Source: a virus (Duplodnaviria > Heunggongvirae > Uroviricota > Caudoviricetes). Taken from it: a DNA stretch of 64,000 nt. The DNA lies in the IMG/VR virus record IMGVR_UViG_2562617057_000010, positions 1-64,000 of that record; one strand, given 5' to 3'. Positions 19,729 to 56,863 of the stretch are shown here, piece by piece; within the stretch, counting starts at the first letter, position 1, and each line of letters starts with the position of its first letter. The translations under genes were made by a program, and so were the position numbers. The notes beneath the pieces were generated by a model, which was given only the letters and a program-made list of their open reading frames with translations, did no database searches and was not told the origin of the DNA.

Positions 19729-19980
19729 ATGAGACAAAGAGAAGATCGCGACCGCGATTGGCCTTCGCTAAAGATTCAGCTGGCGCTCAAAGATAACGGG
19801 TGGTCTTCCTTCCGGGAGCTTTCACTCCATGCTGGTTATGCTCAGGATTCACTGAAAGCGGTGGTTCGTACACCGAACAAAAAATACGAACGCGTAATTT
19901 CTGACGCTATAGGTGTACCGCCAGAAATCATCTGGCCCAGCCGGTATCGTAACGATGGATTTATCAGGAAGGCGTCGTGA
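19729..19980 (+). CDS. ner: Ner-like DNA-binding protein
   Basis: 83 aa with Ner/Nlp signature PEIIWPSRY; first gene of early operon. Confidence 0.8.
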   Translation: MRQREDRDRDWPSLKIQLALKDNGWSSFRELSLHAGYAQDSLKAVVRTPNKKYERVISDAIGVPPEIIWPSRYRNDGFIRKAS

Positions 19981-19981
19981 T

Positions 19982-22087
19982 ATGCAGTCGTACGTTACCG
20001 TAAATGACCTGCTCGGCGTACCAGGAATGCCAGCCACCACAAAAGGCATCCGACAGGCGTTACAGCGTTTTTCTCGTGATCTTGGTGACGTTAGTCGCCG
20101 TCGGGAAGGCACAAAAGCCATTGAGTACCACATTGATTGTCTGCCTGAAATAACACGAAAGGCACTGCGTGAACGCTATGTGGAACAGCTGGTGGCTACA
20201 GAGAACAATGTTTCTGAAGTGAAAGCTGTTACCAGAAAAACACGCAATCCTGACGCTGTCCAGGCAATCGAAGCATATCGCGGTTCTCCACAACTGATGG
20301 AAGAACGCCTGAATGCGCTGACCGAAAACCAGCGCCGGGTATCTGAAGCAAGGGCTGCACTGGTGGTGGAGGTGCTGAAGCTGGAAAGCGACGGTAATCT
20401 CGGGCGACTGAAAGCCATCAACTTTCTTGTTGAAAAAGCCCGTAAAGGTGAATTACCGGAGCGCCTGCAACAAGCCGCAGTTAATGCCAATGCAAAGCGT
20501 GGTGCCAATCGCACCATCAGTCGTGACCCGCTTTATCAGTGGGTGCTGAAATACAACCAGTCGCAGAACGCAGCCGAACGACTGCTGTTACTGGCACCAG
20601 GAAAGCGCGACGAAATAAAACCGGAAGAAATTAGCTGGCTACCTGAATTTCTGGCGCAGTATCGCCAGGCGAATGGCAGACCTATGTCAGAAGCCTACGA
20701 GGATTTTGTCGCGGAATGGCAGCGTCGCCATGCTGACGAACCATACATGCTGGAGGTGATGCCTTCTTACGATGTGGTGCGTTATGCCATGAAGAAATTG
20801 CCGGAAGTGGTGAAACAAAAAGGGCGTGTTACCGGCAGTGAATACCGTCAGCTTGAAGGATTCACCCGCCGCGACTGGACAGCTATGCCGGTGAATTATG
20901 TCTGGATTGGTGACGGTCACGGTATGAAGCTGAAATGTGCGCATCCGGTTCACGGGCGTCCATTTTCGCCGGAAGTTACGTTTGTCATTGATGGTGGAAC
21001 CCGGTTTGTGGTTGGCTGGAGTCTTGATCTTGCTGAAAACGTGTTTGCTGTTGCCGGTGCGATACAGCACGGTATTCGTAATCACGGGAAACCCTTCCTG
21101 TATTACTCGGATAATGGTTCCGGTGAAACGGCAGACATGCTGGATAAAGAGATCGTCGGGATTCTGCCCCGTCTGGGGATTAACCACCCCACCGGTATTG
21201 CCGGAAATCCGCAGGGGCGCGGCATTATTGAGCGCCTGAACCGGACGCTGCCGATGCGTATAGCCAGGAGGTATCGCACCTATTTTGGCAGGGGTGCTGA
21301 CCGGGAATCGTTGCGAGTACTTAATCGTGATCTGCGTTCAGCGTTTAATGCCCTGCAACAGGACAAGCCGCTGAATGCTCGCCAGAAATCTGCAATGCGC
21401 GAGCTGCCGTCCTGGTCAGAACTGATTGAGGCTATTCGCGAAGGCGTGGAATGGTACAACAACCGCCCGCATTCTGAACTGCCGATGAAACCAAACGGGA
21501 AGCATTGCAGCCCGGCTGAGTTCAGGAAAAAACGCCTGGCGGAAGAAAACACCGAAATTGAGTGGCTGAGCGATCTTGAGCTGCGCGACATGTTCCGTCC
21601 GATGGTGGAGCGTCCGGTAAGACGCTGTGAAATCAAATGGCTTGGGAATATTTATTACGCGCCGGAGCTGCGTGATGAACATGGTCGCAAAGTGCTTATC
21701 AGCTATGACATTCATGATGCAGAGCGAATTACAGTGCGCCGTAAGGATGGCAGTTTTATTTGTGAGGCGATATGGAACGGCAATAAACGCGCAGCCTTTC
21801 CTGTCAGTGCGGAATATCACAAACAGCAGCAGCGTATTAAAGGAATGCGCAAACGCGCTGAGGGAAAAATTCGTGATGCTGAAGATGAAGGTATTCAGGT
21901 TATTGAACAAAAAACGACAGAACCCTGGCTGGGGAATGTTTATCGCCCTGTGGGTAATGTGGTGACAGTTCAGCCTCAGGCTCCTGAGGAGACGCTTGAT
22001 AATGCATACAACGCTGAGCGTGATGAATATCTGAATCATTCACTGGATATTCTGGAACAGAAAAGACGTAAAAAGCTGTTTAATTAA
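19982..22087 (+). CDS. A: MuA-like DDE transposase
   Basis: about 702 aa from ATG 19982; integrase-core motifs; C-terminus ERDEYLNHSLDILEQKRRKK resembles the MuA C-terminal tail. Confidence 0.9.
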   Translation: MQSYVTVNDLLGVPGMPATTKGIRQALQRFSRDLGDVSRRREGTKAIEYHIDCLPEITRKALRERYVEQLVATENNVSEVKAVTRKTRNPDAVQAIEAYRGSPQLMEERLNALTENQRRVSEARAALVVEVLKLESDGNLGRLKAINFLVEKARKGELPERLQQAAVNANAKRGANRTISRDPLYQWVLKYNQSQNAAERLLLLAPGKRDEIKPEEISWLPEFLAQYRQANGRPMSEAYEDFVAEWQRRHADEPYMLEVMPSYDVVRYAMKKLPEVVKQKGRVTGSEYRQLEGFTRRDWTAMPVNYVWIGDGHGMKLKCAHPVHGRPFSPEVTFVIDGGTRFVVGWSLDLAENVFAVAGAIQHGIRNHGKPFLYYSDNGSGETADMLDKEIVGILPRLGINHPTGIAGNPQGRGIIERLNRTLPMRIARRYRTYFGRGADRESLRVLNRDLRSAFNALQQDKPLNARQKSAMRELPSWSELIEAIREGVEWYNNRPHSELPMKPNGKHCSPAEFRKKRLAEENTEIEWLSDLELRDMFRPMVERPVRRCEIKWLGNIYYAPELRDEHGRKVLISYDIHDAERITVRRKDGSFICEAIWNGNKRAAFPVSAEYHKQQQRIKGMRKRAEGKIRDAEDEGIQVIEQKTTEPWLGNVYRPVGNVVTVQPQAPEETLDNAYNAERDEYLNHSLDILEQKRRKKLFN

Positions 22088-22121
22088 CGTTTACACAAAA
22101 TTTAATTATGAGGTTACTCCG

Positions 22122-23075
22122 ATGAATATTTCTGATATTCGCGAAGAACTACGCACACTTGTAGAAAGTGAAAAAGTCACTTTTAAACAAATTGCTATTG
22201 AGAGTGATATTTCTACCGGGACTGTCAGTGCGTTTATTAACGATAAATACAGCGGCGATAATGAACGTATCGCACAGGTACTGAAGTGCTGGCTTGACGA
22301 TTATCTTGCTGCCGCAGACCTGCCGGAATTGCCTGGTTTTGTTCAAACGCAGACGGTAAAACAAATCTGGACAAGTATACGCTTTGCCAGCCTGACAGAG
22401 AGTATTGCTGTTATCTGCGGTAATCCTGGTGTGGGTAAATCTGAAGCAGCCAAAGAGTATCGCCGTACCAATAATAACGTCTGGATGATCACCATGGCAC
22501 CATCCCGTGTCAGTGTTCTGGAATGTCTTACGGAACTGGCGTTTGAGCTGGGAATGAACGGTATCCCACGCTGCAAGGGGCCGTTATCCCGTGAATTGCG
22601 CCGTCGTCTTGGGGGAACGCATGGGGTGGTTATTGTAGATGAAGCAGACCATCTTGATATTGCGGCGCTGGAAGAACTTCGTTTGTTACAGGAATCAACC
22701 CGTATTGGCCTGGTATTGATGGGTAATCACCATCTTTACACGAATATGACGGGGGGGAGCAAAACGGTTGAGTTTGCCCGTCTGTTTTCGCGCATAGCAA
22801 AACGCACGGCTATCAAAGCGCCCAAAGTTAACGATGTAAAAGCGATTGCGGAAGCCTGGGATGTTACCGCCAAAAAAGAGCAGGAATTCTTACTGGAGAT
22901 TGCACAGAAACCAGGTGCAATTCGCACCATGACTTACACATTACGTCTTGCTGCCATGAATGCTTACGGTAAAGGCAAACGTGTTAACGAAGATTACCTG
23001 CGTGAGGCTTACGAAGAACTGGATCAGGATGTGGATGTTCAGGAACAGTTGGGTATAAGGAGAGCGAAATCATGA
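22122..23075 (+). CDS. B: MuB-like transposition ATPase
   Basis: 317 aa, Walker A GNPGVGKS, Walker [10 protein letters not shown]. Confidence 0.9.
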
Positions 23076-50429: not shown

Positions 50430-50962
50430 CACCCTGGCAGACGGCCTTTCTGCAATTACTGCCGTCAGGGCTTGCCTGGAATAAAAGCCCCGACAGCAAA
50501 TTATCTGCGCTGGCGCAGGCCATCAGCGACGTGATTGCCACTGCGGCGGATGATGCGCGGCAAATACTGCGGGAGCGTTTCCCGTCCACATCCCGCTGGT
50601 ATCTGGGTGAGTGGGAATCACTTCTGGGGTTGCCGGACTGTACAAGCGAAAACGGCACCCTGTCCGAACGCCAGCGGGCTGCCGCGAATAAAATGCGTAT
50701 GACCGGCAATCTGAGTCGGCGCTTTTATGAATGGCTGGCTGCGCAGTACGGTTTTACCGTCAGGCTGACGGATTCCACAGAAGGCCAGTGGGTTACGCAG
50801 GTCAATATTTACGGTATTAAAAATTATCGCAACGCAACGGTGCTGGATAATGTTCTGACGCCGTTACGTGTTTATGAATCGGGTGCGCTGGAATGTTTAC
50901 TGGAGAAATATAAACCCGCGCATCAGATTTATAAATTTGTTTACCATGACGGAGATAACTAA
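50420..50962 (+). CDS. Baseplate protein (gpI/gp48-like)
   Basis: 180 aa. Confidence 0.7.
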   Translation: MAVTPWQTAFLQLLPSGLAWNKSPDSKLSALAQAISDVIATAADDARQILRERFPSTSRWYLGEWESLLGLPDCTSENGTLSERQRAAANKMRMTGNLSRRFYEWLAAQYGFTVRLTDSTEGQWVTQVNIYGIKNYRNATVLDNVLTPLRVYESGALECLLEKYKPAHQIYKFVYHDGDN

Positions 50963-52473
50963 TGTTTTATATTGATAACGACAGCGGCGTAACCGTCATG
51001 CCGCCCGTATCCGCCCAGCGTAGTGCTATCGTTCGCTGGTTTTCAGAAGGTGACGGGAATAATGTTATCACATGGCCCGGCATGGACTGGTTTAATATTG
51101 TGCAGGCGGAGTTATTAAACACGCTGGAAGAAGCCGGTATTCAACCGGATAAAACAAAATTAAACCAGCTTGCACTGTCCATTAAAGCCATTATGAGCAA
51201 TAACGCGCTGCTGATAAAAAATAACCTCAGCGAAATTAAAACTGCCGGGGCATCAGCACAGCGTACAGCACGTGAAAATCTGGATATCTATGATGCCAGC
51301 CTGAACAAAAAAGGACTCGTTCAGCTAACCAGTGCCACTGACAGCCCCAGTGAAACGCTGGCAGCCACCGCAAAAGCGGTGAAAATTGCGATGGATAATG
51401 CCAGTGCCCGTCTGGCAAAAGACCGGAACGGAGCAGATATTCCCAATAAGCCGCTGTTTATCCAAAACGTCGGTTTACAGGAAACGGTAAACCGGGCCAG
51501 GAACGCTGTGCAAAAAAATGGCGATACCTTGTCCGGCGGACTTACTTTTGAAAACAACTCAATCCTTGCCTGGATTCGGAATACTGACTGGGCAAAGATT
51601 GGTTTTAAAAATGATGCCGACAGCGATACTGATTCCTACATGTGGTTTGAAACAGGCGACAACGGCAATGAATATTTCAAATGGAGACACCGCATCATTG
51701 GCACCCGGCCTAAAGACCTGATGAATCTTAAATGGAATGCTTTGTCTGTTCTTGTTAAAGCCCTTTTCAGCAGTGAAGTGAAAATATCGACAGTCAATGC
51801 ACTGAGGATATTTAATTCATCTTTTGGTGCCATTTTTCGCCGTTCTGAAGAATGCCTGCATATCATCCCTACACGAGAGAATGAGGGAGAAAATGGTAAT
51901 ATAGGGCCATTACGCCCCTTTACGCTTAATCTCAGAACTGGCCGGATAAGCATGGGGCATGGTCTGGTTGTTACAGGAGATATATTTGCAAACCGTTTTG
52001 CAATTAACAGTAGTACCGGCATGTGGATTCATATGCGTGACCAGAATGTTATTCTGGGCCGTAATGCGGTATCCAACGATGGTGCGCAGGCATTGCTTCG
52101 CCAGGACCATACCGACCGTAAATTCGTAATTGGTGGGCTGGGGAATAAGCAATTTGGCATCTACATGATTAATAACTCAAGGACAGCCAATGGCACCGAT
52201 GGTCAGGCGTACATGGATAATAACGGTAACTGGCTTTGTGGTGCGCAAGTTATTCCCGGCAACTATGGCAATTTTGATTCCAGATATGTGAAAGATGTTC
52301 GACTTGGTACTCGTGTTGTTCAGGTCATGCAAAGAGGCGTGATGTATGAAAAATCAGGTCATGTAATAACAGGGCTTGGCATTATTGGCTCTGTTGATGG
52401 TGATGACCCAGCAGTATTCAGACCAATACAAAAATACATCAATGGCACATGGTATAACGTCGCACAGGTATAA
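50962..52473 (+). CDS. S: Tail fibre protein S (constant plus variable part)
   Basis: 503 aa, C-terminal [11 protein letters not shown]; contains gix-like site at 51458-51483. Confidence 0.85.
   Translation: MFYIDNDSGVTVMPPVSAQRSAIVRWFSEGDGNNVITWPGMDWFNIVQAELLNTLEEAGIQPDKTKLNQLALSIKAIMSNNALLIKNNLSEIKTAGASAQRTARENLDIYDASLNKKGLVQLTSATDSPSETLAATAKAVKIAMDNASARLAKDRNGADIPNKPLFIQNVGLQETVNRARNAVQKNGDTLSGGLTFENNSILAWIRNTDWAKIGFKNDADSDTDSYMWFETGDNGNEYFKWRHRIIGTRPKDLMNLKWNALSVLVKALFSSEVKISTVNALRIFNSSFGAIFRRSEECLHIIPTRENEGENGNIGPLRPFTLNLRTGRISMGHGLVVTGDIFANRFAINSSTGMWIHMRDQNVILGRNAVSNDGAQALLRQDHTDRKFVIGGLGNKQFGIYMINNSRTANGTDGQAYMDNNGNWLCGAQVIPGNYGNFDSRYVKDVRLGTRVVQVMQRGVMYEKSGHVITGLGIIGSVDGDDPAVFRPIQKYINGTWYNVAQV
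51458..51483. other. gix/hix-type invertase crossover site
   Basis: TTATCCAAAACGTCGGTTTACAGGAA, one mismatch from the recalled Mu gix sequence. Confidence 0.65.
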
Positions 52474-52476
52474 ATC

Positions 52477-53004
52477 ATGCAGCATTTAAAAAACATCAGG
52501 TCAGGAAACCCAAAGATAAAAGAGCAATACCAATTAACAAAGAATTTTGACGTAATCTGGTTGTGGACAGAAGACGGAAAAAACTGGTATGAGGAAGTGA
52601 AGAACTTTCAGCCAGATACAATAAAGATTGTTTACGATGAAAATAATATTATTGTCGCCATCACTAAAGATGCCTCCACGCTTAATCCTGAAGGCTTTAG
52701 CGTCGTTGAGGTCCCCGATATAACAGCAAATCGTCGTGCCGATGATTCCGGGAAGTGGATGTTTAAGGACGGAGCTGTGGTTAAGCGGATTTATACGGCA
52801 GACGAACAGCAGCAACAGGCCGAATCACAAAAGGCCGCATTGCTTTCCGAAGCTGAATCAGTCATCCAGCCGCTGGAGCGCTCTGTCAGGCTGAATATGG
52901 CGACGGATGAGGAACGCGCACGACTGGAGTCATGGGAACACTATAGTGTTCTGGTCAGCCGTGTGGATACGGCAAATCCTGAATGGCCACAAAAGCCTGA
53001 ATAA
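52477..53004 (+). CDS. U: Tail fibre assembly protein U
   Basis: 175 aa. Confidence 0.85.
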
Positions 53005-53032
53005 AAATTAAGGCCCGATAGCGGGCCTTGTT

Positions 53033-53566
53033 TCATTCTGGTTGTTCTGGAAACGTTACTGGCAGGCTGGAGGTGTCTGTGGATTCGACCTTCTGCGCAT
53101 AGAGCATCCACTCGGTTAATTTTTGTTTATTCTCGTCGGAAATGATGCCCAGCCGTAGCTGTGAGTCCCATAGCTGAGTTTTATCCCTGACAAGTTGCAA
53201 CAGACTTTGCTTTTCATTTTCCGCCTGTTGCCTCTGTTCTTCCCCGGTATAAGTTCGCTTTATCACTACGCCATCTTTGAACATCCATTTACCCGAAATA
53301 TCAGCCCGGCGATTTGCTGTAATATCAGGTAATTCAATGACGCTTGCGCCTTCCGGATTAATTGCTGAAACATCCTTTTCAATACAAATAATAACGCCGT
53401 TGTGGTCATAGACCATTTTCAACGTATCAGGCTGAAAGTTCTTTTGCTCCTCATACCAGTTTTTCCCATCCTCTGTATAAAGCCATTTGATGTTAAATTG
53501 CTTTGTTAGCTGGTATTGCTCTTTTGTTTCAGGATTACCAGCAGAAATGTTTTTTAAGTGCATCAT
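53033..53566 (-). CDS. Alternative tail fibre assembly protein U' (inverted copy)
   Basis: 177 aa on opposite strand, convergent with U, same fold family. Confidence 0.8.
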   Translation of the reverse strand: MMHLKNISAGNPETKEQYQLTKQFNIKWLYTEDGKNWYEEQKNFQPDTLKMVYDHNGVIICIEKDVSAINPEGASVIELPDITANRRADISGKWMFKDGVVIKRTYTGEEQRQQAENEKQSLLQLVRDKTQLWDSQLRLGIISDENKQKLTEWMLYAQKVESTDTSSLPVTFPEQPE

Positions 53567-53568
53567 CG

Positions 53569-54081
53569 TTAAATACTCCCCGCGTTATACCACGTTCCAT
53601 TAATGCAATACTGAACTGGCCTTGCCTGAGTTGTATCAATTAGTGCATCTCTGTTTGAGTTAACGGAACCGGTAACAACATAACCTGACCTGTCAGACCA
53701 GCCGGGACCATTCCATGTCTGAACAGATGACAGACCACCAAGGCGAATACCTGTAATAAACCTTGAGTTACATTCTGCCTGCGTATATGCGCCAACATCT
53801 CTCGCTGATGGCTTGCGTGTTGTGGTGTAAAACTCTGACCAGCCAGCCTCAAATCCATAACCATCACGCGCTGAACGATAAAAAATACCGCCGTTCTTAT
53901 AATTCACACGGAACTGTACAGCAGGGCAACTCCCCGTATTCATATTGAAGTGGAGTATTAATGCTGTTGCGCCTTTGATATCTGCATCATAAACACCGCT
54001 AATCAATGCAATATAGAAAACGACGATCGAATCAATTGAATCGATCGGTAATACAGATCGATTATGTCCTGATAACCACAC
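53569..54081 (-). pseudogene. Alternative tail fibre variable segment Sv' (no constant region, no adjacent gix or gin)
   Basis: ORF with tail-fibre C-terminus YCINGTWYNAGSI; 5' part overlaps the GATC cluster of the mom regulatory region, so coding extent is uncertain. Confidence 0.5.
54020..54062 (+). promoter_or_regulatory. mom upstream regulatory region with clustered Dam (GATC) sites
   Basis: GATC at 54025, 54043, 54056 within 35 bp, about 75 bp upstream of com. Confidence 0.6.
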
Positions 54082-54133
54082 TCACCCCATGATGTTTTTT
54101 AAGATAGTGGCGAATTGATGCAAAGGAGGTGAG

Positions 54134-54322
54134 ATGAAATCAATTCGCTGTAAGAACTGCAACAAACTGTTATTTAAGGCGGGTTCCTTTGATCACATTG
54201 AAATCAGGTGTCCGCGTTGCAAACGTCACATCATAATGCTGAATGCCTGCGAGCATCCCACGGAGAAACATTGTGGGAAAAGAGAAGAAATCACGCATTC
54301 TGACGAAACCGTGCGTTATTGA
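54134..54322 (+). CDS. com: Com zinc-finger translational activator
   Basis: 62 aa, CKNC...CPRC zinc finger, overlaps mom start. Confidence 0.85.
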
Positions 54323-54968
54323 GTATGAAGGCCAGATTGTTGGCTATGGTTCAAAGGAGCTGCGCGTTGAAACCATATCCTGCTGGCTGGCCCGCACAAT
54401 CATTCAGACAAAACATTACTCCCGCCGTTTTGTGAATAACTCTTACCTTCACCTGGGAGTATTCAGCGGACGTGAGCTGGTTGGCGTTCTCCAGTGGGGA
54501 TATGCCCTTAACCCCAACTCAGGTCGTCGTGTCGTGCTTGAAACGGATAACCGGGGTTATATGGAGCTGAACCGCATGTGGCTACACGACGACATGCCCC
54601 GCAACTCTGAATCACGGGCCATCAGTTATGCGCTGAAAACCATCAGATTACTGTATCCATCAGTGGAATGGGTACAGTCCTTTGCAGACGAACGCTGCGG
54701 ACGTGCTGGCGTTGTGTATCAGGCGTCAAATTTTGATTTTATTGGCGGCCATGAAAGCACGTTCTACGAGCTGGATGGCGAGTGGTATCACGAGATAACG
54801 ATGAACGCGATTAAGCGCGGTGGACAACGAGGCGTGTATTTACGGGCTAATAAAGAGCGTGCCGTGGTGCATAAATTTAATCAGTATCGCTACATCAGGT
54901 TCCTGAACAAGCGAGCAAAGAAGCGGCTAAATACTAAGCTATTCAGGATTCAGCCATATCCGAAATGA
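54243..54968 (+). CDS. mom: Mom DNA-modification protein
   Basis: ORF overlapping com 3' end, last gene before the right end; true start probably internal. Confidence 0.75.
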
Positions 54969-54983
54969 TCCCATTTAATGAAT

Positions 54984-55014
54984 AAAAAAACAGCGGTTAA
55001 TGCCGCTGTTTTAT
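54984..55014. terminator. Hairpin terminator after mom
   Basis: A-run, CAGCGG-TTAAT-GCCGCTG, T-run. Confidence 0.65.
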
Positions 55015-55089
55015 CTTGAATAACTTCCATATGCGCGCTTCTGGCTTATCTTGAATGATTTCCATATCTATCTTGAATAATTTTCCGCG
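55011..55089. repeat. Right-end transposase-binding repeats (3x TTATCTTGAAT)
   Basis: Copies at 55011-55020, 55046-55055, 55068-55077; reverse complement of the left-end motif, closely packed. Confidence 0.6.
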
Positions 55090-55100
55090 CTTTACTTTCG

Positions 55101-55802
55101 TTATACCGCCCGTAATGCGCGCAGACGGGCGGCTATTTTGTTTCGTATGGCGCGAACACCTGCTTTGGGAGTGGTGCTGTGCGCACGGGCCATCCACTCA
55201 TCGGCGCTACGTAGTTTCGCCACGTCGTAAATGGCGGCCGGGGTTGTCGGTTTGCCATCGCTGTCCCGTAACAGGTTAAGACCGGCGAATTTGTACCATC
55301 TGGCAACTATCTCTTCGTGCAGTGTCCAGTCTTTTTCGATATGGCTCATCACGCGGCTGAAATAGGGCTCGACGGAAAGGCCTTTATCAAACTGAATCTG
55401 TGCCCACTGCATGACCTCATCGGCGACGAACGTTGGCAAATCACGGTCAAAGCGTGGTGGCATGGGTTGATTCTGTCCGATGGCGATATCGGCCCATTCC
55501 AGAGCTTTGTCCATTTCGCCGGTATCAAACAGCCAGACGATGCACCAGGTAAACGGGATGTATTTGTACTCCTCGCCGCTTTGCAGCCACGCCTCAATCG
55601 TCGGCATCCAGCGCGGCAGCAGGGATTCACGCTTGAATGCCACACGATCGGCGTTGGTGGCGCAACTGCTCACAGCCCTGCAGTCGATTTCCAGTTGCGC
55701 CAGTTGCAGATGAAGACTGTCGCGTACGGTCAGTGCCTCGCGGTGTTCCATTGCCTGCTGCGCGGCCAGTCTGGCTCTGAACTTTTGCGCCGGAGTCTGC
55801 AT
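55101..55802 (-). CDS. M: Terminase small (endonuclease) subunit, P2 gpM-like
   Basis: 233 aa; stop lies 7-12 bp from the Mu-like right end. Confidence 0.7.
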   Translation of the reverse strand: MQTPAQKFRARLAAQQAMEHREALTVRDSLHLQLAQLEIDCRAVSSCATNADRVAFKRESLLPRWMPTIEAWLQSGEEYKYIPFTWCIVWLFDTGEMDKALEWADIAIGQNQPMPPRFDRDLPTFVADEVMQWAQIQFDKGLSVEPYFSRVMSHIEKDWTLHEEIVARWYKFAGLNLLRDSDGKPTTPAAIYDVAKLRSADEWMARAHSTTPKAGVRAIRNKIAARLRALRAV

Positions 55803-55813
55803 ACGTCAGTCCG

Positions 55814-56863
55814 TTACGCTGCCTGGTTTGGTTTCGCATGTTCAGGTGATGGCAGTCCTGCCAGTTCAATGTTGTCAAACGAACCGTAGAGTGCGTCATA
55901 TTCCACGGCGCAACCCTGCATACGCAGCCAGTTGTTTTCGAAGCGTTTGCGGTCATCAATCCATTCGGCACGGCGTTGCTGTGTTCCGCGCTGGAAGTAC
56001 ATATGCAGATTCCAGAGCGTGGTGACAACCAGGCGGTTATCCGGCATAAATGGCGGACTGAATGACTTGCGTCCGGCGATCTCACGGTTGATAAGCTGGG
56101 CGGCGACTTTTTCTGTCGGGCGGTCGATGCGGTTCAGCATACTGACCGTATCTGCTGCGATAATGTTCTGTGATACCAGTACAACCAGATCCGGGTGTTG
56201 ACGGAATTCGGGTGGAATGCAGGTATTGATTACATCGGCGGCAATAGCATCAACAGACGTAAAATCAGCCCCGGTTCCTGTACGGTTCAATACGACCTTG
56301 TCAGTAATGATCTGTTTTGGTGTGCGCGCTTTAACAATCTGATGCCATCCCGGGTGAATATCTTCCCCGTTCGGGCAGGTATCAGGATTGGTTTCATCTG
56401 CGGCATGTGTACCGTTCAGTGCCACGCGTAACAGGTCGTTGGTGACTGACTTGTAAAAGAACGCCTGAAGACGGTTATAGAACTCGTTTTCGGTGCCTGC
56501 GTTTGCCCAGTTGGTCAGGGTGGTGTAGTCCAGGAATGAACCGGAATCCACTTCGTAAAGCTTGTACTCGTTGCCTTCACTCCCCAGCGCTTTATTGAAG
56601 CGTCCGTCTTTCTTGCGCCCGGTATACAACCCCGGAATTCCGGTACTGACTACCTGGCCGACAAGCTGTTCGACCAGCATGACGGTGATCTTGCCCATGA
56701 ACGGGTCGGCATTCTCAATCAGGGCATCGCGTAGCAGGGTTTCACGCGGTGGGCTGATGGTAAAAAACTGTTGTGCTGTAAATACGCCATTGGCTTTTGC
56801 CATCGAAATGGCGTAATTACGCAAAAACTTTTGCGCCTGTGGTGATAACATCTGTGCGGCCAT
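55814..56863 (-). CDS. N: Major capsid protein, P2 gpN-like
   Basis: 349 aa. Confidence 0.8.
   Translation of the reverse strand: MAAQMLSPQAQKFLRNYAISMAKANGVFTAQQFFTISPPRETLLRDALIENADPFMGKITVMLVEQLVGQVVSTGIPGLYTGRKKDGRFNKALGSEGNEYKLYEVDSGSFLDYTTLTNWANAGTENEFYNRLQAFFYKSVTNDLLRVALNGTHAADETNPDTCPNGEDIHPGWHQIVKARTPKQIITDKVVLNRTGTGADFTSVDAIAADVINTCIPPEFRQHPDLVVLVSQNIIAADTVSMLNRIDRPTEKVAAQLINREIAGRKSFSPPFMPDNRLVVTTLWNLHMYFQRGTQQRRAEWIDDRKRFENNWLRMQGCAVEYDALYGSFDNIELAGLPSPEHAKPNQAA

What the first reader, a model, noticed from the sequence alone, without database searches (positions are those of the whole stretch)
55005..55094. Right-end repeat cluster and Mu/P2 junction with target-site duplication
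Three TTATCTTGAAT copies (reverse complement of the left-end motif) follow the mom terminator. The element ends within about 10 bp of 55088, and GCTTT (55089-55093) duplicates 18722-18726. An alternative reading is a 4-bp CTTT repeat (18723-18726 / 55095-55098), so the exact terminal nucleotides remain ambiguous.
Basis: seen in the sequence. Interest (0 to 1): 0.4.

Follow-up and report, generated by a model that had tools for sequence, protein, structure and literature searches.

The report
Mu-like prophage right end, 4-bp duplication
This is the right end of a Mu-like transposable prophage that jumped into a P2-like prophage; uninterrupted copies of the site show that it duplicated 4 bases (CTTT), not the 5 expected from phage Mu.

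Summary
The repeats are real. TTATCTTGAAT occurs at 55011 and 55046, and CTATCTTGAAT at 55068. The reverse complement occurs three times at the left end (18743, 18814, 18866).

Six E. coli genomes carry the same P2-like prophage uninterrupted and read ...GTGGGGCTTTCGTTAT.... The element is therefore 18727-55094 (36,368 bp, 5'-TATGACTAGG...CCGCGCTTTA-3').

The preferred 5-bp GCTTT at 55089-55093 lies inside the element. The end ...GCGCTTTA is conserved in five other insertions with unrelated flanks.

All nine insertions examined from this transposase lineage have 4-bp duplications: six with this end type, one vB_YpM_5-type and two Sp18-like. A genuine Mu prophage read the same way gives 5 bp and TG...CA ends.

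The transposase is 76-82% identical to Sp18-type and vB_YpM_5 transposases but only 27% identical to MuA. The part of its N-terminal region that tracks the repeat motif differs where the motif differs, so the repeats are probably its binding sites.

This is an ordinary Mu-like prophage end with one modest twist: a 4-bp duplication and TA-3' termini. GenBank depositors have already annotated the 4-bp duplication, but I did not find it in the papers I could search.

The parts
18154..18699 (-). P2-family head completion gene (gpL-like), forming the left flank of the insertion. The likely start is the ATG at 18627.
   Evidence: Pfam Phage_GPL, E 7e-36. RefSeq annotates the uninterrupted homologue as 'head completion/stabilization protein'.
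18723..18726 (+). Left copy of the 4-bp target-site duplication, CTTT.
   Evidence: The empty site in six E. coli genomes reads GGGGCTTTCGTTAT, with a single CTTT. Flank homology runs up to 18726.
18727..18742 (+). Left terminus of the Mu-like element, 5'-TATGACTAGGTAATTT.
   Evidence: Homology to other copies with unrelated flanks starts exactly at 18727 (alignment A1).
18743..18753 (-). L1 repeat (ATTCAAGATAA on the plus strand). Its core lies 17-26 nt from the terminus.
   Evidence: It is invariant in all five left ends aligned.
18814..18824 (-). L2 repeat (TTTCAAGATAA on the plus strand). Its core lies 88-97 nt from the terminus.
   Evidence: TTCAAGATA is a conserved island inside sequence that has otherwise diverged.
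18866..18876 (-). L3 repeat (ATTCAAGATAA on the plus strand). Its core lies 140-149 nt from the terminus.
19001..19621 (-). Repressor-like gene in the position of Mu c.
   Evidence: ORF. Pfam gives only a weak Phage_CI_repr match. RefSeq relatives annotate a helix-turn-helix protein here.
19729..19980 (+). ner-like gene.
   Evidence: Pfam HTH_35, E 1e-13.
19982..22087 (+). Transposase A. The start is probably the ATG at 19982; all comparisons used 19994-22087.
   Evidence: - Pfam: Mu-transpos_C (E 3e-18), HTH_Tnp_Mu_1 (E 6e-7), weak rve; no DDE_2 and no HTH_Tnp_Mu_2.
- Identity: 27% to MuA, 82% to the vB_YpM_5 transposase, 76% to the Sp18-like transposase.
22122..23075 (+). Transposition ATPase B.
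   Evidence: Pfam Phage-MuB_C (E 2e-27) plus an AAA domain. It is 75% identical to MuB.
54134..54968 (+). com (54134-54322) and mom (54243-54968), the last genes of the element.
   Evidence: Pfam Zn_ribbon_Com and Mom. About 95% nucleotide identity to Mu, SfMu and D108, extending to window position 55020.
54987..55012 (.). Symmetric hairpin after mom (A-run, 7-10 bp stem, T-run); a possible terminator.
   Evidence: where it was scored terminator-like on the minus strand only.
55011..55021 (+). R3 repeat (TTATCTTGAAT). Its core lies 74-83 nt from the right terminus and it overlaps the T-run of the hairpin.
55046..55056 (+). R2 repeat (TTATCTTGAAT). Its core lies 39-48 nt from the terminus, 22 bp from R1.
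55068..55078 (+). R1 repeat (CTATCTTGAAT). Its core lies 17-26 nt from the terminus, the same offset as L1.
55079..55094 (+). Right terminus, ...AATTTTCCGCGCTTTA-3'. It contains the GCTTT that was mistaken for the duplication.
   Evidence: Homology to other copies stops at 55094. The end ...GCGCTTTA is conserved next to five unrelated flanks.
55095..55098 (+). Right copy of the 4-bp target-site duplication, CTTT.
55101..55802 (-). P2-family small terminase gene (gpM-like), forming the right flank. Its stop codon (55101-55103) lies 2 bp from the duplication.
   Evidence: Pfam Phage_term_smal, E 1e-35. RefSeq names the homologue gpM.

Best explanation
Positions 55005-55094 are the right attachment end (attR) of a 36,368-bp Mu-like transposable prophage spanning 18727-55094.

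**Where it inserted.** The prophage transposed into the 104-bp spacer between gpM and gpL of a P2-like prophage, 2 bp past the gpM stop codon.

**What the repeats are.** The three repeats (consensus AAnnnWTTCAAGATAA) and their three inverted partners at the left end are most likely the binding sites of the element's own transposase. R1 and L1 sit at the same offset, 17-26 nt from each terminus.

**What the transposase is.** It belongs to the Sp18/vB_YpM_5 lineage and is not a close MuA relative. It has a Mu-type N-terminal DNA-binding domain, a generic integrase-like catalytic core and the Mu transposase C-terminal domain. Its last residues are Mu-like, which would match the Mu-like B protein.

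**Proposed mechanism.** The transposase cuts at the TA-3' termini and joins them to target strands staggered by 4 bp. Repair of the gaps leaves the 4-bp duplication CTTT.

**Shown:** the boundaries, the duplication, the repeat architecture and its conservation.
**Inferred:** transposase binding to the repeats, cleavage at TA-3', the 4-bp stagger, and that the insertion cuts gpL and downstream genes off from the P2-like late operon.
For: **Boundaries and duplication**
- Six genomes hold the uninterrupted site. The left and right flanks, joined with a single CTTT, align to them without a gap at 98.6-99.5% identity. The site reads GGGGCTTTCGTTAT.
- Flank homology ends at 18726 and resumes at 55095. 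Element homology starts at 18727 and ends at 55094.

**Other insertions with the same ends (TATGAC...GCGCTTTA)**

| Strain | Duplication |
|---|---|
| FDAARGOS_943 | GAAA |
| VL40 | TTCA |
| STEC346 | ATTC |
| 06-00048 plasmid | TATA |
| STEC388 | CAGG |

**Relatives with other ends, also 4 bp**

| Insertion | Duplication |
|---|---|
| Strain 1290 (vB_YpM_5-type) | GTGA |
| LC727895 (Sp18-like) | AGAG |
| LC727881 (Sp18-like) | GATG |

The depositors of LC727895 and LC727881 annotated these as 4-bp duplications.

**Control.** A true Mu prophage in E. coli W, read the same way, gives the 5-bp GCCGC and TG...CA ends.

**Repeats as functional sites**
- 8 hits against 0.84 expected.
- L1 and R1 sit at identical offsets, and 19 of the first 30 terminal nucleotides match between the two ends in register.
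- L2 and L3 are invariant islands in otherwise diverged left ends.

**Covariation with the transposase (numbered from 19994)**
- Against the vB_YpM_5 transposase, whose ends carry a different repeat (TTTGATAC): residues 1-200 are about 48% identical, residues 201-650 about 98%.
- Against the STEC346 transposase, which uses the same repeat: residues 51-200 are 90-100% identical.

**Transposition genes.** A has a Mu-type N-terminal DNA-binding domain (HTH_Tnp_Mu_1) and the Mu-transpos_C domain. B has the Phage-MuB_C domain and is 75% identical to MuB.
Against: - No experiment here shows that the transposase binds the repeats, cuts after TA or makes a 4-bp stagger.
- A TA-3' terminus departs from the CA-3' that is typical of Mu and most related transposases (my own knowledge).
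- In STEC388 the fifth base after the duplication happens to be T, so that single case could also be read as 5 bp.
- Nine insertions is a small sample.
- R3 overlaps the hairpin after mom, so that copy could serve another role or a dual one.
Confidence: 0.87

Rival explanations
1. One reading: a canonical Mu-style 5-bp duplication GCTTT (18722-18726 and 55089-55093), with the element ending at about 55088.
For: GCTTT does occur at both places. Phage Mu makes 5-bp duplications; PMC8705779 states this, and the E. coli W control shows it.
Against: - Positions 55089-55094 (GCTTTA) are conserved at the right end of five other insertions with unrelated flanks.
- Under this reading an extra A (55094) plus a second CTTT would sit between the duplication and the flank. 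The empty site has a single CTTT.
Confidence: 0.01
2. The duplication is really 5 bp, and one base mutated after insertion. That would mean CTTTT/CTTTC with the element starting at 18728, or GCTTT/ACTTT with the element ending at 55093.
For: It would match the Mu paradigm. Four of five bases match under either reading.
Against: - The 'mutated' base would have to be T on the left and A on the right in every one of six independent insertions, whatever the target.
- The empty site has C and G at those two positions.
- With 18727 and 55094 as termini, the two ends align in register.
Confidence: 0.02
3. The repeats are not transposase sites. They would instead bind a host or regulatory protein, or simply belong to the terminator region after mom.
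For: - R3 overlaps the T-run of the hairpin.
- Pfam did not detect a Mu I-gamma end-binding domain in this transposase.
- Binding was not tested.
Against: - The motif sits at both ends in inverted orientation, with L1 and R1 equally far from the termini.
- It is conserved where neighbouring sequence has diverged.
- It changes to TTTGATAC exactly in the relatives whose transposase N-terminal region differs.
- The layout resembles Mu: R1 and R2 are 22 bp apart, while L1 is set apart from L2 and L3.
Confidence: 0.08

Closest known systems
Sp18-like Mu-like prophages of Shiga-toxin-producing E. coli (Sp18 of O157 Sakai; Mu_JNE122137 and Mu_JNE082796 in LC727895 and LC727881)
   Same: - The transposases are 76% identical.
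- The depositors annotated 4-bp duplications.
- The right terminus is similar: ...GCGCTATA there, ...GCGCTTTA here.
- Several are also found inserted in other prophages (PMC10132054).
   Different: - Their end repeats are TTTGATACC, not TTCAAGATA.
- Their left terminus starts TGTAAC (TG), not TATGAC.
- The C-terminal tail of their transposase is not Mu-like.
Yersinia phages vB_YpM_5 and vB_YpM_6 (MT374853 and MT374854), isolated plaque-forming Mu-like phages
   Same: - The transposase is 82% identical overall and about 98% from residue 201 onward.
- The termini are of the same type: TATGA... and ...GCGCGCTTTA.
- com and mom are about 96% identical.
- A prophage with vB_YpM_5-type ends has a 4-bp duplication.
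   Different: - The first roughly 200 residues of the transposase are only about 48% identical.
- The end repeats are TTTGATAC, not TTCAAGATA.
Bacteriophage Mu (also D108 and SfMu)
   Same: - Gene order is the same: c, ner, A, B ... com, mom.
- B is 75% identical, and com and mom are about 95% identical in nucleotides.
- There are three repeats at each end, with R1 and R2 22 bp apart.
- The L1-L2 spacer is related.
- The last residues of A are Mu-like.
   Different: - The transposase is only 27% identical, with no Pfam DDE_2 or HTH_Tnp_Mu_2 match.
- The end repeats have an unrelated sequence.
- The termini are TA...TA, not TG...CA.
- The duplication is 4 bp, not 5 bp (control).
- There is no gin invertase between S' and com.
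Pseudomonas phage B3
   Same: It is a transposable phage whose duplication length also differs from Mu's.
   Different: Its duplication is 6 bp (PMC8705779). It was not compared by sequence here.

Membership tests
Transposable (Mu-like) phages | Encodes a DDE transposase A with the Mu transposase C-terminal domain, next to a MuB-type ATPase. | tested here: met
   A: Mu-transpos_C, E 3e-18, and HTH_Tnp_Mu_1, E 6e-7. B: Phage-MuB_C, E 2e-27, plus an AAA domain, and 75% identity to MuB.
Transposable (Mu-like) phages | Inserts at many unrelated sites and is flanked by a short target-site duplication. | tested here: met
   Six insertions with this end type lie in six different loci: the P2-like M-L spacer, alanine racemase, fliH, a plasmid and two other chromosomal sites. 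Each has a different 4-bp direct repeat.
Transposable (Mu-like) phages | Several copies of a repeat at both ends, in inverted orientation, serving as transposase binding sites. | tested here: met
   Three copies at each end, with L1 and R1 at the same offset, conserved across relatives. The sequence pattern is met; protein binding cannot be tested with these tools.
Phage Mu in the strict sense (MuA-type transposition module) | 5-bp target-site duplication. | tested here: not met
   4 bp in all nine insertions of this lineage. The Mu control in E. coli W gives 5 bp by the same method.
Phage Mu in the strict sense (MuA-type transposition module) | 5'-TG...CA-3' termini. | tested here: not met
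   The termini are 5'-TA...TA-3' (TATGAC...CTTTA) in all six copies of this end type.
Phage Mu in the strict sense (MuA-type transposition module) | MuA-type catalytic core (Pfam DDE_2) and I-gamma end-binding subdomain (Pfam HTH_Tnp_Mu_2). | tested here: not met
   Neither family matched, although both match MuA strongly in the same run. Identity to MuA is 27%. A sequence search of solved structures found only retroviral integrase cores.
Sp18/vB_YpM_5-type Mu-like phages (my own working grouping, not a published taxon) | Transposase at least about 75% identical to the Sp18-like or vB_YpM_5 transposases, a right terminus ...GCGCT(T/A)TA, and a 4-bp duplication. | tested here: met
   76% and 82% identity. 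Termini. Duplications.
P2-like prophage (the flanking DNA) | P2-family late genes in the order L-M-N. | tested here: met
   Phage_GPL, Phage_term_smal and Phage_cap_P2, with E values from 7e-36 to 9e-73. The uninterrupted arrangement is present in six genomes.

The most novel reading that the evidence does not exclude
A whole lineage of enterobacterial Mu-like phages (Sp18-like, vB_YpM_5/6 and this element) transposes with chemistry that differs from the Mu textbook case.
- It uses an integrase-like transposase only 27% identical to MuA.
- Most of its termini are TA-3' rather than the near-universal CA-3'.
- It cuts the target with a 4-bp stagger, outside the '5/6 bp' scar that reviews give as the signature of transposable prophages.
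- End recognition is a swappable module: roughly residues 51-200 of the transposase change together with the end repeats, while the catalytic part and the terminal nucleotides stay fixed.
Probability: 0.55. Interest if true: 0.45.

Novelty: new member of a known kind. Interest (0 to 1): 0.3.

Why it matters
**For this window.** It fixes the prophage boundaries to the base (18727-55094). It also shows that a Mu-like phage jumped into the late operon of a P2-like prophage and probably disabled it.

**More generally.**
- Boundary callers, and human readers, who assume Mu's 5-bp duplication and TG/CA ends will misplace the ends of this lineage by several bases, as happened here.
- Paired natural variants now exist in which the transposase N-terminal region and the end repeats change together. 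They offer a ready-made system for mapping how a Mu-type transposase reads its ends.
- The same lineage allows a test of what sets the 4-bp versus 5-bp stagger.

Tried and rejected
- **Occupied junction elsewhere.** I searched 5,426 complete E. coli genomes for the same insertion and found none. The source strain is not in that set.
- **Scan of species-representative genomes.** The left-end sequence matched only Shigella flexneri SFBU1023 and E. coli ECMA0423. Both carry it at one shared site that is not the P2 site. The loci were too short to reach the right ends, so they gave no duplication.
- **RM9088.** It could not be used because its right end is cut off by ISEc12.
- **Literature.** Searches for a 4-bp duplication in Mu-like phages found nothing. 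The SfMu, Yersinia-phage, Sakai-prophage and Pseudomonas integration-site papers do not state a duplication length. Only PMC8705779 does: Mu 5 bp, B3 6 bp.
- **Solved structures.** A sequence search with the transposase did not return MuA. I made no structure prediction because the question did not need one.
- **Alternative readings.** I considered and rejected a 6-bp duplication, and an internal TG as the true left end; there is no matching CA at the right end.

Full report
**1. Observation**

The motif TTATCTTGAAT, allowing one mismatch, has 8 hits in the window against 0.84 expected. None of 100 shuffles reaches 8. Six hits form two clusters:
- Plus strand: 55011 and 55046 (exact) and 55068 (CTATCTTGAAT).
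- Minus strand: 18743 and 18866 (exact) and 18814 (one mismatch).

So 'three copies' means two exact and one near-exact, and they are the reverse complement of the left-end motif.

The cluster follows com and mom, both confirmed by Pfam. It also follows a symmetric hairpin at 54987-55012, which the scan scored as terminator-like on the minus strand only.

GCTTT is indeed present at both 18722-18726 and 55089-55093, and CTTT at both 18723-18726 and 55095-55098.

**2. Flanks**

| Window ORF | Pfam family | Identity |
|---|---|---|
| 18154-18699 (-) | Phage_GPL | head completion protein |
| 55101-55802 (-) | Phage_term_smal | gpM |
| 55814-56863 (-) | Phage_cap_P2 | P2-family capsid |

The element sits between gpM and gpL of a P2-like prophage.

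**3. Empty site**

I joined the left flank (ending at 18722) to the right flank (starting at 55095) and searched complete E. coli genomes. Six genomes match the whole 572 nt in one ungapped piece at 98.6-99.5% identity. The annotated genes there are gpM and the head completion protein.

The uninterrupted sequence is ...GCCTGAAGCCGTGGGGCTTTCGTTATA.... Searches with each junction gave these limits:
- Flank homology stops at 18726 and resumes at 55095.
- Homology to other copies of the element starts at 18727 and stops at 55094.

The element is therefore 18727-55094 (36,368 bp), 5'-TATGACTAGG...CCGCGCTTTA-3'. The duplication is CTTT, 4 bp. The insertion lies 2 bp beyond the gpM stop codon, in the 104-bp M-L spacer.

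**4. Why the 5-bp reading fails**

The bases GCTTTA at 55089-55094 are the conserved tip of the element. The same ...GCGCTTTA abuts five unrelated flanks in other strains (alignment A2). TATGAC... likewise abuts unrelated left flanks (alignment A1).

**5. Duplication length in independent insertions**

| End type | Insertion | Duplication |
|---|---|---|
| This type | window | CTTT |
| This type | FDAARGOS_943 | GAAA |
| This type | VL40 | TTCA |
| This type | STEC346 (alanine racemase) | ATTC |
| This type | 06-00048 plasmid | TATA |
| This type | STEC388 (fliH) | CAGG |
| vB_YpM_5-type | strain 1290 (ydcO) | GTGA |
| Sp18-like | LC727895 | AGAG |
| Sp18-like | LC727881 | GATG |
| True Mu (control) | E. 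coli W | GCCGC (5 bp) |

All nine insertions of this lineage have 4 bp. The depositors of LC727895 and LC727881 themselves annotated 4-bp 'duplication due to insertion of Mu_...'. The Mu control also has TG...CA ends.

The constant T at the left tip and A at the right tip, whatever the target, rule out a 5-bp or 6-bp reading.

**6. Repeat architecture**

Measured inward from each terminus, the 10-nt cores lie at these positions:
- Left end: L1 17-26, L2 88-97, L3 140-149.
- Right end: R1 17-26, R2 39-48, R3 74-83.

The six-site consensus is AAnnnWTTCAAGATAA. The two ends match at 19 of their first 30 nucleotides, in register.

Across diverged relatives (STEC346, RM9088, 06-00048), L2 and L3 stand out as invariant islands. 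The layout recalls Mu: R1 and R2 are 22 bp apart, and L1 is set apart from L2 and L3. Unlike Mu's R3, all three right-end copies here point the same way.

**7. The transposase**
- It is only 27% identical to MuA over the core. The last ~20 residues (ERDEYLNHSLDILEQKRRKK) are nearly identical to Mu.
- Pfam finds HTH_Tnp_Mu_1, weak rve and Mu-transpos_C. It does not find the MuA-specific DDE_2 or HTH_Tnp_Mu_2.
- A sequence search of solved structures returns only retroviral integrase cores.
- It is 82% identical to the vB_YpM_5 transposase and 76% to the Sp18-like transposase.
- B is 75% identical to MuB.

From the MuA alignment and the typical integrase motif GRGIIERLNRTLP, I infer the catalytic residues as D307, D373 and E413, numbered from 19994. 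The BLAST alignment itself places MuA E392 opposite N416, so E413 is my reassignment and remains untested.

**8. Covariation**

| Compared with | End repeat | Residues 1-50 | Residues 51-200 | Residues 201-650 |
|---|---|---|---|---|
| vB_YpM_5 A | TTTGATAC (different) | about 46% | about 44-54% | about 98% |
| STEC346 A | TTCAAGATA (same) | 50% | 90-100% | about 86-100% |

These identities come, numbered from 19994. Residues of roughly 51-200 therefore track the end repeat. The catalytic part and the terminal ~10 nucleotides stay constant.

This is the best evidence available here that the repeats are the transposase's binding sites. It remains an inference.

**9. Mechanism**

Shown:
- Exact boundaries and the 4-bp duplication.
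- Inverted clusters of three repeats.
- Conservation of the repeats and their covariation with the transposase.

Inferred:
- The transposase binds the six sites and pairs the ends.
- It nicks after TA-3' and joins the ends to target phosphates 4 bp apart; gap repair then duplicates CTTT.
- The Mu-like C-terminal tail couples it to the Mu-like B protein.
- The 36-kb insertion separates gpL and downstream genes from the P2-like late promoter.

**10. Known or new**

PMC8705779 states that Mu gives 5 bp, B3 gives 6 bp, and that 'the 5/6 bp duplication' is the scar used to recognise transposable prophages. I found no paper in the searchable library reporting 4 bp for a Mu-like phage. Two GenBank records from the study PMC10132054 do annotate it.

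The end is an ordinary member of a sequenced lineage. Its repeat motif and the matching region of the transposase have no counterpart among deposited phage genomes. In that search, nothing matched the first 1.8 kb of the element.

**11. Verdict**

The preferred interpretation (5-bp GCTTT) is refuted and the fallback (4-bp CTTT) is proven by empty sites. This is a new member of a known kind. Interest is modest (0.3), and lies in the lineage's 4-bp duplication and its mostly TA-3' termini.

Noticed in passing
window 50962-54134: There is a tail-fibre module laid out like Mu's invertible G segment: S and U on the plus strand, U' and the S' C-terminal part on the minus strand. The arms 52477-52833 and 53210-53566 are 70% complementary. 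Only 52 bp separate S' from com, so no gin invertase sits where Mu has one, and no clear flanking crossover repeats were found.
   Followed up: partly
window 21980-23075: The transposase gene is mosaic. Its last ~107 nt are 89% identical to Mu A, and B is 75% identical to MuB. The rest of A is Sp18-type, and the Sp18-like A has a different C-terminal tail. The recombination joint therefore keeps the transposase tail matched to its B partner.
   Followed up: partly
L017 and L018 (E. coli STEC388, NZ_CP041425, near 2852470 and 1939240): The two halves of fliH lie about 913 kb apart in opposite orientations. One adjoins a Mu-like left end and the other a right end, and both carry the duplication CAGG. 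This looks like a large inversion caused by recombination between prophage copies.
   Followed up: no
L001 and L002 (E. coli FDAARGOS_943, NZ_CP065615): This strain has the uninterrupted P2-like site. It also carries the same Mu-like element elsewhere, with the left 574 bp 100% identical, and a second Mu-like prophage with vB_YpM_5-type ends (H97). The window probably comes from a close relative in which the element moved into the P2-like prophage.
   Followed up: partly
L010 355-433 (Yersinia phage vB_YpM_5, MT374853): The deposited 'circular' genome is permuted. Its right end (...GCGCGCTTTA, ending at 354) and left end (TATGAAGAGG, starting at 434) are separated by 79 bp of unrelated DNA. 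This is probably host DNA packaged with the phage genome.
   Followed up: no
window 18753-18800, compared with Mu 28-75 (L008): The spacer after L1 (AACCGGGAAGAGATT...GGGAATAGATTGG) resembles Mu's L1-L2 spacer (AACCGGGAGGACATT...GGGATTAGATTTGG), although the transposase sites on either side are unrelated.
   Followed up: no
L005 (E. coli RM9088, NZ_CP042298): This is a decayed relative. Its right end and the C-terminal part of mom are removed by ISEc12, and an IS66-family element is inserted in the early region.
   Followed up: no
L019 and L020 (Shigella flexneri SFBU1023; E. coli ECMA0423): The same left end sits at one identical chromosomal site in both genomes (...GAAATCGACTACC|TATGAC). This suggests a shared, inherited insertion.
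   Followed up: no
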